Below, piece after piece: positions 361-3,612 of a stretch of 4,083 nt of DNA. The notes under the pieces are model-generated. The model did not search any database, had not been told where the DNA came from, and was given only the letters and a program-made list of their open reading frames with translations. Each line of letters opens with the position of its first letter. Within the stretch, counting starts at the first letter, position 1. The DNA comes from a virus (Duplodnaviria > Heunggongvirae > Uroviricota > Caudoviricetes), in IMG/VR virus record IMGVR_UViG_2606217102_000012; one strand, written 5' to 3'. The translations under genes and the position numbers were made by a program.

Positions 361-393
361 AAGCAAAACAAAGGCGACCGCAAAAGGGTCGCC
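361..393 (-). terminator. Rho-independent terminator candidate for the minus-strand RHH cassette
   Basis: Perfect 7-bp GC-rich inverted repeat GGCGACC (373-379) / GGTCGCC (387-393) with a 7-nt loop. On the minus strand the hairpin is followed immediately by TTTGTTTTGCTT (revcomp of 361-372). It lies 67 nt past the stop of the 460..633 gene. Confidence 0.55.
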
Positions 394-459: not shown

Positions 460-633
460 TCAGTCTGGTTCAGTTCGTTGCCATACCTGCAATGAGCGCT
501 TTTCCCTGTACTCTTTAAGGAATTGCTCAAGGGCAAAAGCACATGGCGCGAATCTTTCTGATTCATGCTCTATCTTTCTGCGCCGTCTTTTCCGTGTCGG
601 TGATAATGTTTTGGTCAATTCTTTATCGGTCAT
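460..633 (-). CDS. small highly basic hypothetical protein (57 aa; 62 aa if the upstream ATG at 648 is used), second gene of the RHH cassette
   Basis: Minus-strand ORF in tandem with the RHH gene (42-57 nt gap). The ATG at 633..631 has a weak AGGG SD-like sequence 7 nt upstream; stop TGA at 462..460. Product MTDKELTKTLSPTRKRRRRKIEHESERFAPCAFALEQFLKEYREKRSLQVWQRTEPD, with an R/K-rich stretch (TRKRRRRK). Followed 67 nt downstream by a hairpin plus T-tract. No family recognised. Confidence 0.45.
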   Translation of the reverse strand: MTDKELTKTLSPTRKRRRRKIEHESERFAPCAFALEQFLKEYREKRSLQVWQRTEPD

Positions 634-690
634 TGTGTTGCCCTGCATAGCAATGCGCCGTAGTTACTCACACCACGGCGCTGGTGATGG

Positions 691-870
691 TTACTCCTGC
701 TCTTTGGCCTTGCGACGCTGGCGGCGTTTGATCTCGCCTTTTGCGGCAGTAACTAAAAAACCAGCGGTACTTTCGCCAGGTTCTTTAAGTTGCTCAATAT
801 CATCCATTACTTCATGTGGGATTCTGACAGTTGTCATTTGTGATTTTGCGTTCTTTGCACCAGTTGCCAT
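691..870 (-). CDS. Arc/MetJ-type ribbon-helix-helix DNA-binding protein (59 aa), candidate element repressor or antitoxin-like regulator
   Basis: Minus-strand ATG at 870..868 preceded by AGGAGA (revcomp of 876-881) at good spacing; stop TAA at 693..691. Product MATGAKNAKSQMTTVRIPHEVMDDIEQLKEPGESTAGFLVTAAKGEIKRRQRRKAKEQE. The segment VRIPHEVMDDIEQL...GESTAGFLVTAAKGEI follows the Arc-repressor RHH pattern (beta-strand R-x-P-x-E-hydrophobic, then two helices). The six-frame track extends this ORF to 1038, but that N-terminal extension has no RBS and overlaps the promoter region. Confidence 0.65.
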   Translation of the reverse strand: MATGAKNAKSQMTTVRIPHEVMDDIEQLKEPGESTAGFLVTAAKGEIKRRQRRKAKEQE

Positions 871-891
871 TTCTGGATCTCCTAAAAATTG

Positions 892-984
892 GTGTATGTC
901 AGTATACGCAAAAAAAATGATAAAAAAAGGCTTGAAGTGTATTTCACCAGTGAGTAAATTAAAAAGCAAAGGTGAAATACACCT
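892..984. promoter_or_regulatory. divergent promoter/operator region between the minus-strand RHH gene and the plus-strand small-gene/rep operon
   Basis: Perfect 12-bp inverted repeat GTGTATTTCACC (937-948) / GGTGAAATACAC (971-982) separated by a 22-bp AT-rich spacer, plus another GTGTAT at 892-897. A-tracts at 909-929. Candidate sigma70-like elements: plus-strand TTGAAG (932-937), 17 bp, TAAATT (955-960); minus-strand -10-like TATACT (revcomp of 901-906). Promoter hexamers are weak matches and unverified. Confidence 0.4.
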
Positions 985-1063
985 AAAAGAGCAACGCCCC
1001 GCAGTGCTCGCAACACATGCAGGGCGTCTAACCACCAACGATAACGAGAGTATCGAGGTAGCT

Positions 1064-1270
1064 ATGAGAAATTATACCAGACACCCGCAAGGGCGGGACT
1101 CGTACAACCTGAATAAATACATCTGGCGTTTTATCGCCCTGAGCACGGCACAACCGCGCGTGATTACCATTGAGGCCACCAGCGAACAGGAAGCGCGTCA
1201 GCAATCTCCTGATGGCTGCGTGATGGTATTCGCTGCCCGTATTCGCCAGGGGGAAACCTATGCACAATAA
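1064..1270 (+). CDS. small hypothetical protein (68 aa), tentatively Icd-like (host cell division inhibitor family); first gene of the plus-strand operon
   Basis: ATG 1064 preceded by GAGG (1055-1058) with 5-nt spacing; stop TAA 1268-1270. Product MRNYTRHPQGRDSYNLNKYIWRFIALSTAQPRVITIEATSEQEARQQSPDGCVMVFAARIRQGETYAQ. The ...EAxSEQEAR...FAAR... C-terminal pattern resembles what I recall of Icd-like small proteins in P4-like/satellite islands; family assignment is from memory only. These are the last 68 codons of the otherwise spurious 152..1270 ORF. Confidence 0.5.
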   Translation: MRNYTRHPQGRDSYNLNKYIWRFIALSTAQPRVITIEATSEQEARQQSPDGCVMVFAARIRQGETYAQ

Positions 1271-1721: not shown

Positions 1722-2009
1722 ATGAAAAATAAAAATTCTGGCTTTACTGCCAGCGGCCCCGCTCGGCCTGAAATCCGCCCCGGCGATATTTTCCGGGATA
1801 ACTATGGCGGCACGGTAACGATAAAAGGCGTGGCAGAACGGCGCATCACTTACCGCCGTGATGGCTACGAATATGACTGCGTGATGCCTGTTTATCAGTT
1901 CCGGCGTGATTTCACGCTGGTGGGCCATCGTAAAGCCGTAAATCAGAAACGTGCAGCAAGTCATATCCGCAAAATTCGTGAAATGCTGGTCGCAGGGGGT
2001 AAAAAATGA
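1722..2009 (+). CDS. hypothetical basic protein (95 aa), translationally coupled to the downstream helicase gene
   Basis: ATG 1722 begins 6 nt after the upstream stop; its stop TGA (2007-2009) overlaps the ATG of the rep gene (2006-2008) in ATGA. Product MKNKNSGFTASGPARPEIRPGDIFRDNYGGTVTIKGVAERRITYRRDGYEYDCVMPVYQFRRDFTLVGHRKAVNQKRAASHIRKIREMLVAGGKK. No family recognised. Confidence 0.55.
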   Translation: MKNKNSGFTASGPARPEIRPGDIFRDNYGGTVTIKGVAERRITYRRDGYEYDCVMPVYQFRRDFTLVGHRKAVNQKRAASHIRKIREMLVAGGKK

Positions 2010-3412
2010 AACTGGCACCGAACGTAAAACTGTTACCGAAAGATAAACACACTGAGGCGGTTATTTTTGCGGGTGATAATGCTCACTCCTTTGCAGAACA
2101 TTACATGATTGCACAGGCCAAAAAAGCAGGCGATCCCATCCCTCCGGTTTACCTGGGCCGTTATCAGTTAAGCGAACTGGACAACCTGCAGATTGTTGAT
2201 GAGGGGCGATACAGGGTAACGGTGATACGCGCCGGAAATATTGACGAAGCGCAGCTGTTAACCATAGCGACAAAACTGGCGATCGCCGGAGTCCAGGAAG
2301 CGCGGCTGCTTTCTGAAAACTTCGAATTACTGGAGAAATGGACCGACCAGCTTCCACGGCTACGGGAGACATGGGAGAGAGGGGAAAGCCTGATCATGAA
2401 CGGAGGAAAACAAAAAATCACGCTACCGATTTCATGGGGTTCTGAGGGATTCGACGCGCAGCAAAGCTACGTAATTAAGGGGCTTATTCCGGCTGAATCA
2501 TTATGCAGCACCTACGGGGCCAGCGGTTCTTATAAATCGTTCCTGGCTATTTCCTGGTCGTGCCATGTTGCCACAGGTATGGCATGGGGAGGCCGCAGGG
2601 TAAGTAAGGGCGCGGTTATCTATATCGCTGGCGAAGGCAGTATGGGCGTAAAACGCCGCGTTAAGGCGTGGGAGATAACCCACGACAAGGTGGTTACGGA
2701 TTTGTGCATCGTTAACGCGCCTGTCTTCCCTGCATCGCCTGACTATGTGGAGCAGGTTATCAGGACCGCCGGATTAGTGCAGGACAGAACGGGCGAAAGG
2801 GTGCGGATGATTGTCATTGACACGCTGGCCCGTTGCTTTGGTGGTCATGATGAAAATGACTCCCGCGACATGGGGGCGTTTATCCAGGGGTGTGACGCGA
2901 TAAAGCAGGCCACGGGGGCCACGGTTCTGGTTGTGCATCATTCCGGCAAGGATGAGACGAAAGGGGCGCGGGGTTCCAGTGCATTCCGTGCGGCGCTTGA
3001 TGCTGAGTTCCGAATCAGTCGGGAACATTCAGAGGCTACGGCGCTGGTTGCAGCATGTACGAAGATGAAGGACGCGGAGGAGCCAAAAGAAAGCGCCTAC
3101 GACCTTAAGAGCGTGGAGGTATTTACGGATCCTGAGGGTGAAGAAATCGTGTCCATGGTGGTGATTGACGTTCCCCGCGCCCCTGCTGAACTGGAGCGCA
3201 TAGAGGAGGCCGGGAACAAGACGGAAAATCACACGGCTTTATGGGGTTGTATCCGGTCACGTATACAGCATGGTGATAAATGCACGATCCCGCTGCTACG
3301 TGATGACATGAAAAAGCTGGGATATGACACAAAACACCTTAAACGATGGTTAGCCAAACTGGAAAAAGACGGCGTGATTTGCGTCGATGGGGATGATGTT
3401 CACCCACTGTAA
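2006..3412 (+). CDS. RepA-like RecA-fold (AAA_25-type) ATPase / replicative helicase-initiator of the element (468 aa)
   Basis: Long ORF with SD AGGGGG (1994-1999) 6 nt before the ATG. P-loop-like motif YGASGSYKSFLAI; Walker B / helicase motif RMIVIDTLARCF followed by HDENDSRDM; motif TVLVVHHSGKDETKGARGSSAFRAALDAEFRI typical of RepA/DnaB-like RecA-fold helicases. N-terminal ~150 aa and C-terminal ~90 aa regions (...DDMKKLGYDTKHLKRWLAKLEKDGVI..., possibly winged-helix) are unassigned. Iteron array begins at its stop codon. Confidence 0.85.
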   Translation: MKLAPNVKLLPKDKHTEAVIFAGDNAHSFAEHYMIAQAKKAGDPIPPVYLGRYQLSELDNLQIVDEGRYRVTVIRAGNIDEAQLLTIATKLAIAGVQEARLLSENFELLEKWTDQLPRLRETWERGESLIMNGGKQKITLPISWGSEGFDAQQSYVIKGLIPAESLCSTYGASGSYKSFLAISWSCHVATGMAWGGRRVSKGAVIYIAGEGSMGVKRRVKAWEITHDKVVTDLCIVNAPVFPASPDYVEQVIRTAGLVQDRTGERVRMIVIDTLARCFGGHDENDSRDMGAFIQGCDAIKQATGATVLVVHHSGKDETKGARGSSAFRAALDAEFRISREHSEATALVAACTKMKDAEEPKESAYDLKSVEVFTDPEGEEIVSMVVIDVPRAPAELERIEEAGNKTENHTALWGCIRSRIQHGDKCTIPLLRDDMKKLGYDTKHLKRWLAKLEKDGVICVDGDDVHPL

Positions 3413-3612
3413 AAAGTGGGCGTTAAAAGTGGGAATAGTGGGTAATTTAACTGGAATTTAACAAAATCGCCCACTTTCCCACGTGTATACATCCCAAAAA
3501 GTGGGCACTAAAAAAATTCTTATGAAACAGTACGATATAAAACCACAAAATCCCAGGTGGGACGAAGTGGGAAACCATGAAAAGTGGGTAGAAAAAGTGG
3601 GCGCAGGTGGGC
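3403..3612. repeat. iteron array, candidate origin of replication (ori) of the element
   Basis: Direct copies of (A)AGTGGG ending at 3420, 3433, 3442, 3505, 3571, 3588 and 3601, plus AGGTGGG variants ending at 3561 and 3611. Inverted copies CCCACT at 3403-3408 and 3470-3475, and CCCAC at 3478-3482. Two clusters (3403-3505 and 3555-3612) flank an AT-rich ~45-bp segment (3506-3550). AATTTAAC occurs twice (3444-3451, 3455-3462). Placement directly 3' of the helicase gene matches the rep-ori layout of SaPI/PICI-type elements. Confidence 0.7.

What the first reader, a model, noticed from the sequence alone, without database searches (positions are those of the whole stretch)
892..984. Perfect 12-bp inverted repeat (GTGTATTTCACC / GGTGAAATACAC) in the divergent control region: candidate operator
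A perfect 12-bp dyad with a 22-bp AT-rich spacer lies between the divergently transcribed RHH gene and the small-gene/rep operon; a third GTGTAT half-site is at 892-897 and A-tracts at 909-929. This is the expected position for a switch operator controlling replication-module expression, bound either by the RHH protein or by AlpA. RHH dimers-of-dimers typically bind repeated short half-sites.
Basis: seen in the sequence. Interest (0 to 1): 0.5.

Follow-up and report, generated by a model that had tools for sequence, protein, structure and literature searches.

The report
Operator sites of a satellite-island repressor
The 12-bp inverted repeat is real. It is two of three binding sites for a small, previously uncharacterised ribbon-helix-helix protein (YlcI/YnfO family) that most likely shuts off the replication genes of a phage-satellite island, a type of island for which no repressor had been identified.

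Summary
The dyad is confirmed: 937-948 GTGTATTTCACC and 971-982 GGTGAAATACAC, with a 22-bp spacer. It is rare by chance (18 of 2000 shuffles). The functional unit is not the dyad but a single 11-13 bp site (GGTG-N5-CACC) present three times.

- Site A (891-903) lies over the -10/start of the leftward ylcI promoter.
- Site B (936-948) abuts the -35 of the rightward icd-like/replication promoter.
- Site C (971-983) lies just after that promoter's -10.

In 67 homologous loci from about 20 genera the positions are fixed. The site sequence changes from island to island, and all three copies change together. The site type tracks the N-terminal strand of the divergently encoded YlcI/YnfO protein, whose predicted structure matches ribbon-helix-helix (RHH) repressors. 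It does not track AlpA or the adjacent Icd-like protein. In 27 of 67 loci site C is a direct rather than an inverted copy, so a hairpin or cruciform role is excluded.

Best reading: an autoregulated RHH repressor with operators on back-to-back promoters, occurring in many specificity ("immunity") types. The prototype Gram-negative PICI (phage-inducible chromosomal island), EcCICFT073, has the same module. Binding and repression are inferred, not shown.

The parts
891..903 (.). Operator site A (GGTGTATGTCAGT). It is a degenerate copy that overlaps the -10 and the likely start of the leftward ylcI promoter.
   Evidence: It matches site B at 9 of 11 positions. It sits at a fixed offset (24 nt from the ylcI ATG; 45 nt start-to-start from B) in nearly all of the 67 loci, and its sequence changes together with B and C.
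901..906 (-). Putative -10 of the leftward promoter P_L (TATACT on the minus strand).
   Evidence: CAGTATAC is invariant in the E. coli alignment. A TATAnT-like hexamer is present at this place in 60 of 67 loci. No transcription start has been mapped.
909..929 (.). A-rich tract between the two back-to-back promoters. It is possibly UP-element-like for P_R and the -35 region of P_L.
   Evidence: It is visible in the sequence and its A-richness is conserved in homologues. Its role is inferred.
932..937 (+). Putative -35 of the rightward promoter P_R (TTGAAG).
   Evidence: TTGAnn at a fixed offset, then 16-18 nt, then TAnnnT, is found in 65 of 67 loci. It falls below the threshold of the generic promoter scan (8 of 12 matches).
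936..948 (.). Operator site B (AGTGTATTTCACC). This is the left arm of the reported dyad and overlaps the -35 and spacer of P_R.
   Evidence: It always starts at the last base of the -35 hexamer in homologues.
955..960 (+). Putative -10 of P_R (TAAATT), 17 nt after the -35.
   Evidence: TAnnnT conserved in 65 of 67 loci.
971..983 (.). Operator site C (GGTGAAATACACC). This is the right arm of the dyad, at about +5 to +17 of the predicted P_R transcript.
   Evidence: It is a perfect reverse complement of the GGTGTATTTCACC consensus. In homologues it lies 22-25 or 34-35 nt after B, inverted in 40 loci and direct in 27.
691..870 (-). ylcI-like gene: a 59-aa ribbon-helix-helix protein, the proposed repressor.
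460..648 (-). Second small gene (62 aa) of the leftward operon; function unknown.
   Evidence: ORF. It matches phrog_21027, E 1.5e-15. A gene is annotated at the same place in L002, L003, L005 and EcCICFT073.
373..393 (-). Terminator-like hairpin followed by a T run, ending the leftward operon.
   Evidence: 7-pair stem, 6 G-C pairs, then TTTGTTTTGC.
994..1027 (+). Leader hairpin 1 of the rightward transcript.
   Evidence: 11 of its 13 pairs show changes on both sides across 37 sequences. It is conserved even in islands that lack ylcI.
1039..1055 (+). Leader hairpin 2, immediately before or overlapping the Shine-Dalgarno sequence (GAGG, 1055-1058) of the icd-like gene.
   Evidence: 4 of its 5 pairs show changes on both sides, and 91% of cells are paired.
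1064..1270 (+). Icd-like gene, the first gene of the controlled rightward operon. It is followed by small ORFs, a DUF4222 gene and the RepA-like helicase at 2006-3412.
   Evidence: NF033153, E 1e-19; AAA_25, E 7e-43.

Best explanation
The dyad is two of three copies (A 891-903, B 936-948, C 971-983) of an 11-13 bp operator, GGTG-N5-CACC. The operator is recognised by the ribbon-helix-helix protein encoded next door (ylcI/ynfO family, 870-691, minus strand).

RHH dimers would insert their N-terminal two-stranded ribbon (residues about 11-17, KSQ-MTTVRI-P) into the major groove. The invariant Arg16 would read the conserved GTG/CAC flanks. The variable outward-facing residues 12 and 14 would read the central 5 bp.

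Sites B and C bracket the -10 of the rightward promoter (TTGAAG-17-TAAATT), so an occupied operator blocks RNA polymerase and keeps the icd-like/replication operon off while the island is quiescent. Site A covers the -10/start of the repressor's own promoter, giving negative autoregulation.

The repressor plus its operators form a swappable cassette that exists in many specificity types.

What is shown: the sites, their fixed positions relative to conserved promoter-like hexamers, their concerted change across islands, their association with the RHH strand and not with AlpA or Icd, and the RHH fold of the model.

What is inferred: actual binding, the stoichiometry (one dimer per site is the simplest guess), the direction of regulation (repression), and how repression is relieved.
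For: 1. The repeat is real and rare by chance.
2. In 67 loci from Escherichia, Yersinia, Pectobacterium, Xenorhabdus, Serratia, Proteus, Gilliamella and others, an 11-mer taken right after the -35 recurs at the A and C positions of its own locus. The mean is 19.4 of 22 identities, against 14.1 of 22 in loci whose YlcI strand differs. A score of 19 or more occurs in 81% of own-locus comparisons and 0.5% of cross-locus ones.
3. The same strand goes with the same operator across genera: MTTVRIP with GTGTATTTCAC, LTTVRVP with GTGTGTTTCA, QLNARFP with GTGCGATTCAC, KLQARAP with GTGGAGTCCAC, ALKARVP with GTGGGCCACAC, and so on. Pairs with the same operator share 7.5 of 8 strand residues.
4. Residues 12 and 14 carry the most mutual information with the operator core (z 15 and 11). 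N7, K9, S10 and R16 are invariant.
5. AlpA and the equally close Icd-like gene are uncoupled from operator type. Identical Icd or AlpA proteins occur with unrelated operators.
7. Promoter-like hexamers are conserved around the sites.
8. There are no other good copies of the operator elsewhere in two complete islands.
9. Site C is direct in 27 of 67 loci, and direct or inverted with the same strand sequence (L040, L049, L053 against L055). This fits independent protein sites, as known for the omega repressor, and does not fit a structure-forming palindrome.
Against: No binding, footprint or transcription-start data exist here. The promoters fall below the consensus threshold of the generic scan.

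The association between strand and operator is confounded by physical linkage and shared descent. Background intergenic DNA also correlates with operator identity. The uncoupling of the equally linked Icd gene argues against pure linkage.

Site A is degenerate: 9 of 11 positions here, and 8 of 11 by eye in EcCICFT073, where the search allowing up to 2 mismatches missed it.
Confidence: 0.75

Rival explanations
1. The sites are bound by AlpA, the known activator of Gram-negative PICIs, which would act at this promoter.
For: AlpA is encoded just upstream (1-99). It is required for expression of island genes in EcCICFT073 (PMC6092414). In P. aeruginosa the AlpA site lies between the -35 and -10 of its target promoters (PMC7969949), which is where site B lies here.
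Against: AlpA type and operator type are uncoupled. L001 has identical sites but an AlpA only 22-33% identical to those of other loci with the same operator. AlpA proteins that are 100% identical occur with operators sharing 1-6 of 11 bases. Spearman rho is 0.10 for AlpA against 0.52 for the YlcI strand. The published AlpA element GGGACG-N5-GGTA has no match with 2 mismatches or fewer in 880-1000.
Confidence: 0.04
2. The sites are bound by another island protein rather than, or together with, YlcI. Candidates are the 62-aa product of the second leftward gene (460-648) or a Cro-like product of the rightward operon.
For: The 62-aa gene is co-transcribed with ylcI and is basic. PHROGs label the Icd-like family 'transcriptional repressor'. 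Lambda-type switches use two proteins on the same operators.
Against: The Icd-like protein does not track operator type: identical Icd proteins occur with operators sharing 5-7 of 11 bases. No gene is annotated directly after ylcI on its strand in L004 and L008, and a different, larger gene lies there in L006 and L007, yet these loci keep the three sites. YlcI is the only protein present in every locus that has the architecture, because the loci were found through it. That selection also means the set cannot reveal islands that have the operators without ylcI.
Confidence: 0.1
3. The inverted repeat acts through nucleic-acid structure: a cruciform, an RNA hairpin, or a terminator for leftward transcription.
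For: The single strand folds at -10.6 kcal/mol, z -5.1. The scan flags site C plus a T run as a weak minus-strand terminator (984-970).
Against: In 27 of 67 homologues site C is a direct copy, so no hairpin can form. The left arm lies upstream of the predicted start, so it is not in the rightward RNA. The third copy at site A and the concerted sequence change have no structural explanation.
Confidence: 0.03
4. It is a chance repeat in AT-rich intergenic DNA.
For: Short repeats are common in AT-rich spacers.
Against: 18 of 2000 shuffles contain such a repeat. The repeat is conserved in position with covarying sequence in 67 loci.
Confidence: 0.01

Closest known systems
Arc and Mnt repressors of phage P22 immI; RHH repressors in general (MetJ, CopG, omega)
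   Different: There is no detectable sequence similarity to any solved RHH protein. The site is 11-13 bp with conserved GTG/CAC flanks. This differs from Arc's 21-bp operator bound by a tetramer and from omega's 7-bp heptads (sizes from my knowledge). The stoichiometry is unknown. The second helix is long and ends in a basic tail.
Lambda-type CI/Cro switch (OR1-3 between PRM and PR)
   Same: Three related operators lie in a region of about 90 bp between back-to-back promoters. One promoter drives the repressor gene and the other drives the early/replication operon. The system occurs in many immunity types with matched changes in repressor and operator.
   Different: The reading head is RHH, not helix-turn-helix. 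No Cro counterpart was found. No LexA-like cleavage domain is present, since the protein has only 59 aa. The arrangement is one site on P_L and two on P_R.
Stl/Rpr master repressors of Gram-positive PICIs (SaPIs)
   Same: The gene is divergently transcribed from the excision/replication operon of a phage satellite. The proposed role is to keep the island silent.
   Different: The protein is unrelated and very small. Induction of Gram-negative PICIs has so far been attributed to helper-induced alpA expression, not to an anti-repressor (PMC6092414). Whether a helper protein targets YlcI is unknown.
P4 CI RNA / P1 C4 antisense-RNA immunity (Rfam C4, isrK)
   Same: It occupies the same place in related satellites, between alpA and the icd-like/replication genes. 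A related island (L069) has isrK and C4 matches just downstream of the same conserved leader.
   Different: There is no C4 or isrK match in this window, nor (at gathering threshold) in the six other ylcI-bearing loci searched, L001-L003, L005, L008 and L071. Here the candidate immunity factor is a protein acting on DNA.

Membership tests
Ribbon-helix-helix (Arc/MetJ/CopG) DNA-binding fold (for the neighbouring protein) | A beta-alpha-alpha fold superimposable on solved RHH domains | tested here: met
Ribbon-helix-helix (Arc/MetJ/CopG) DNA-binding fold (for the neighbouring protein) | An N-terminal strand whose alternate residues face the DNA and determine specificity | tested here: inconclusive
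   Residues 12 and 14 have the highest mutual information with the operator core (z 15 and 11), and R16 is invariant. This fits the i, i+2, i+4 pattern. The sequences are not phylogenetically independent, and the strand is not formed in the monomer model.
Ribbon-helix-helix (Arc/MetJ/CopG) DNA-binding fold (for the neighbouring protein) | Obligate dimer that binds DNA | not testable with these tools
   This needs biochemistry or a multimer prediction.
YlcI/YnfO family (NCBIfam NF041551) | Score above the curated cut-off of the family model | tested here: met
   64 bits against a cut-off of 30, E 9e-18, covering residues 9-50. RefSeq annotates the homologues as 'YlcI/YnfO family protein'.
Transcriptional operator | Repeated sites that overlap the core elements of the regulated promoters | tested here: met
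   Site A lies over the P_L -10, site B over the P_R -35 and spacer, and site C just after the P_R -10. The hexamers are conserved in 65 of 67 and 60 of 67 loci. The promoters themselves are predicted, not mapped.
Transcriptional operator | Sites conserved in position and covarying with the cognate regulator in homologues | tested here: met
Transcriptional operator | Specific binding by the regulator, with an effect on transcription | not testable with these tools
   This needs gel-shift or footprinting assays and reporter assays.
Gram-negative PICI (phage-inducible chromosomal island) | int-alpA, then a replication module with an iteron origin, and a few captured packaging genes, in an island of about 10-15 kb | tested here: met
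   The window has the end of alpA, an AAA_25 helicase, six AAAGTGGG iterons at 3413-3601 (0.14 expected) and ssb. Over 650-1300 the window is 98% identical to L001, which is an island at tRNA-Pro of roughly 10 kb (int to last island gene) carrying int, alpA, a primase, ssb, capsid, decoration and terS genes. The prototype EcCICFT073 has the same control module.
P4/P1-type antisense-RNA immunity (Rfam C4 RF01695, isrK RF01394) | A match to the covariance models | tested here: not met
   There is no match in the window at E up to 1, or up to 10 for 880-1100. Matches were found only in L069, which lacks ylcI.
AlpA binding element | The site type follows the AlpA type; the P. aeruginosa motif is GGGACG-N5-GGTA | tested here: not met

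The most novel reading that the evidence does not exclude
YlcI/YnfO-family RHH proteins are the long-sought master repressors of Gram-negative PICIs and cf-PICIs, including the prototype EcCICFT073. Their more than a dozen matched repressor-operator types would define satellite immunity groups.

Induction would work by bypassing or removing this repressor. One route is AlpA-modified RNA polymerase reading from the alpA promoter through the convergent ylcI gene into the replication operon, since AlpA is a processive antiterminator in P. aeruginosa. The other route is a helper-phage anti-repressor, as for SaPI Stl.
Probability: 0.35. Interest if true: 0.7.

Novelty: new member of a known kind. 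Interest (0 to 1): 0.55.

Why it matters
[quoted passage not shown] My full-text searches found no paper that assigns a function to YlcI/YnfO proteins or notes a divergent repressor gene in these islands.

In RefSeq the prototype EcCICFT073 carries this small gene (C_RS30120) with three GTGGGCCACAC-type sites at the same positions. The hypothesis can therefore be tested directly in the established experimental system.

This control region matches at 80% coverage or more in 613 of 5426 complete E. coli genomes, so the module is common.

The many natural pairs of strand and operator also form a ready-made data set for how RHH ribbons read DNA, and a source of orthogonal small repressors.

Tried and rejected
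- Rfam search of the whole window and, with lax thresholds, of 880-1100 found nothing credible; in particular there was no C4 or isrK.
- The generic sigma-70 scan found no promoter in the window. The proposed promoters match 8 of 12 consensus positions and rest on conservation instead.
- AlpA as the binder was rejected on covariation. The Icd-like protein as the binder was also rejected, despite the PHROG label 'transcriptional repressor'.
- A hairpin or cruciform role was rejected because site C is a direct copy in many homologues.
- Extra operator copies elsewhere in two whole islands: none better than 2 mismatches, at chance frequency.
- My first guess at the EcCICFT073 coordinates returned a lambdoid prophage. 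The right coordinates came from the paper's supplement.

Full report
**Context.** The window is part of a phage-satellite island of the Gram-negative PICI (phage-inducible chromosomal island) type.
- It starts in the last 32 codons of alpA (Phage_AlpA, E 1e-7).
- It contains a leftward pair of small genes (870-691 and 648-460).
- A rightward operon begins with an Icd-like gene (1064-1270; NF033153, E 1e-19). It continues through small ORFs and a DUF4222 gene to a RepA-like AAA_25 helicase (2006-3412).
- An iteron field follows, with six AAAGTGGG copies at 3413-3601 against 0.14 expected, and then ssb.
- Over 650-1300 the window is 98% identical to E. coli M7424. There the region lies in an island next to tRNA-Pro that carries int, alpA, a primase, ssb, a major capsid protein, a decoration protein and terS.

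**The observation.** Only 18 of 2000 dinucleotide-preserving shuffles of the window contain such a repeat with a spacer of 40 nt or less. Each arm is itself a near-palindrome, GGTG-N5-CACC.

**Comparative anatomy.** I collected 8 E. coli loci of 71-98% identity and 59 loci from other genera by searching for relatives of the small leftward protein. These include Yersinia, Pectobacterium, Hafnia, Kosakonia, Xenorhabdus, Photorhabdus, Proteus, Providencia, Morganella, Serratia, Pantoea, Gilliamella and a Pasteurellaceae strain.

The layout is nearly invariant:
- Site A starts about 24 nt from the ATG of the leftward gene.
- Site B starts 45 nt further on, at the last base of a TTGAnn hexamer.
- Site C starts 22-25 nt after B (short form) or 34-35 nt after B (long form, as in this window).

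TTGAnn, then 16-18 nt, then TAnnnT is present in 65 of 67 loci. B covers the -35/spacer, and C overlaps or follows the -10. On the other strand a TATAnT-like hexamer (TATACT here, 906-901) overlaps site A in 60 of 67 loci. The generic promoter scan misses both promoters because they match only 8 of 12 consensus positions. The promoters are therefore predicted from conservation, not mapped.

**Concerted change of the sites.** The positions are fixed but the sequence is not. It is GTGTATTTCAC here, and GTGCGATTCAC, GTGCAAGTCAC, GTGGAGTCCAC, GTGTAAGACAC, GTGGTGTTCAC, GTGGGCCACAC, GTGGTTAGCAC and more elsewhere. Within each island all three copies carry the same variant.

The 11-mer at B matches its own A and C sites at a mean of 19.4 of 22 positions. 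It matches the A and C regions of islands with a different protein strand at 14.1 of 22. A score of 19 or more occurs in 81% of own-locus comparisons and 0.5% of cross-locus ones. This is the signature of a sequence-specific, island-encoded binding protein. It excludes a host factor of fixed specificity.

**Which protein.** The leftward 59-aa protein belongs to the YlcI/YnfO family (NF041551, 64 bits against a cut-off of 30). Neither PHROGs nor any paper I could find assigns a function to this family.
- An AlphaFold2 model (pLDDT 88) has an extended N-terminus and two helices.
- Foldseek and sequence searches of the PDB found nothing significant.
- The predicted ribbon, K9-S10-x-x-x-x-x-R16-x-P18, aligns with Arc's Q9-F10-N11-L12-R13-W14-P15. 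This is my alignment, made from memory of the Arc sequence.

Identical strands go with identical operators across genera, and locus pairs with the same operator share 7.5 of 8 strand residues. Residues 12 and 14, which would face the DNA together with the invariant R16, carry the most mutual information with the variable operator core (z 15 and 11). One example: the strands MTTVRIP and LTTVRVP differ at the DNA-facing residue 12 (and at residue 17), and their operators differ by one base (GTGTATTTCA against GTGTGTTTCA).

**Controls for linkage.** Background intergenic DNA also correlates with operator type, so linkage is a real confounder. Two neighbouring genes serve as controls.
- AlpA is uncoupled. 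Of 73 locus pairs with AlpA at least 80% identical, 61 have operators sharing 7 of 11 bases or fewer. Of 83 same-operator pairs, 45 have AlpA below 40% identity.
- The Icd-like gene lies as close to the operators as ylcI does, yet it is also uncoupled. Same-operator pairs have a median Icd identity of 39%. Pairs with 100% identical Icd (L008 and L041; L044 and L053) have operators sharing 7 and 5 of 11 bases.

Many E. coli islands match this window only from about 978-997 onwards. One of them (L069) has a different small divergent gene with three GTGTACAC palindromes in the corresponding place. Repressor plus operators therefore behave as an exchangeable cassette in front of a conserved leader.

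**Mechanism proposed.** YlcI dimers occupy B and C and occlude the rightward promoter. This keeps the icd-like/replication operon silent. Occupancy of the weaker site A limits ylcI transcription. No further good copies of the operator exist elsewhere in two complete islands, so the regulon is local.

How repression is lifted is not known. AlpA is required for island gene expression and activates its own promoter (PMC6092414). The P. aeruginosa AlpA is a processive antiterminator (PMC7969949, PMC9371919). In P4, a late promoter upstream of the alpA homologue reads through the immunity region (summarised in PMC10111431). A plausible but untested route is therefore read-through from the alpA promoter across the convergent ylcI gene into the operon. 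An anti-repressor from the helper phage is the alternative.

**Relation to what is known.** The module works like a small lambda-type switch built from an Arc-like protein. It occupies the place that antisense-RNA immunity (C4/isrK) occupies in P4-like relatives. Those RNAs are absent here but present in L069.

[quoted passage not shown] Later papers that I could search mention YlcI/YnfO only as an accessory 'prophage-associated protein' in cf-PICIs (PMC13612085). In RefSeq the prototype island EcCICFT073 carries ylcI (C_RS30120, strand QALKARVP). It has GTGGGCCACAC at B and C and a degenerate copy at A.

**Verdict.** The binder is assigned to the RHH protein and not to AlpA. The function (repression) and the binding itself remain inferences. 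The finding is a new, widespread member of a known kind of regulatory device, and it bears directly on an open question about how Gram-negative phage satellites are kept silent.

Noticed in passing
window 994-1063: There is a conserved structured 5' leader in front of the icd-like gene. It consists of a G+C-rich hairpin (994-1027), an almost invariant single-stranded UCUAACCA, and a second hairpin (1039-1055) that abuts the Shine-Dalgarno sequence. Across 37 sequences, 15 of 18 pairs show changes on both sides and 84% of cells are paired, against 29-42% when partners are slid; 0 of 500 shuffles reach the observed values. There is no Rfam match. The leader is conserved even in islands that lack ylcI: 1730 of 5426 E. 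coli genomes match at least this part. Its function is unknown.
   Followed up: partly
L071 3474-3853 (E. coli CFT073, NC_004431.1 1380473-1380852): The prototype PICI EcCICFT073 carries a YlcI/YnfO gene and an Icd-like gene (locus tags C_RS30120 and C_RS30125). It also has three GTGGGCCACAC-type sites in the same layout.
   Followed up: yes
L069 1752-2010 and 2269-2457 (E. coli EC12): A related island has a different small divergent gene in place of ylcI. This is a 64-aa product whose sequence contains an FHMRIVPEL stretch, RHH-like by eye. Three GTGTACAC palindromes lie nearby. Rfam isrK (69 bits) and C4 (76 bits) matches lie just downstream of the same leader. This suggests that protein and RNA immunity cassettes are swapped or combined.
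   Followed up: partly
window 3413-3601: Six copies of AAAGTGGG (five on the plus strand, one on the minus) flank an AT-rich stretch directly after the helicase gene, against 0.14 expected by chance. This is the iteron-type origin described for PICIs.
   Followed up: partly
window 460-648 (minus strand) and 373-393: A second small leftward gene (62 aa, basic, phrog_21027, no known function) follows ylcI. It ends at a strong terminator-like hairpin. It is present in some homologous islands (L002, L003, L005, EcCICFT073) but not all.
   Followed up: no
L003, L004, L006, L007 (1203-1508, minus strand): Some YlcI homologues are 101 aa long, with an extra C-terminal helical extension. They have the same N-terminal strand type and the short-form operator spacing (B to C 22 nt).
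   Followed up: no
window 1064-1270: PHROGs label the Icd-like family (phrog_6196, phrog_1743) 'transcriptional repressor', whereas NCBI names it a host cell division inhibitor. The N-terminal third of these proteins comes in at least two unrelated versions (MRNYTRHPQGR... and MAxxQHTQTRPKF...).
   Followed up: partly
L046 (contig labelled Pseudomonas lundensis): One locus with Enterobacterales-like ylcI, leader and icd sequences sits in an assembly labelled Pseudomonas. This could be contamination or horizontal transfer.
   Followed up: no
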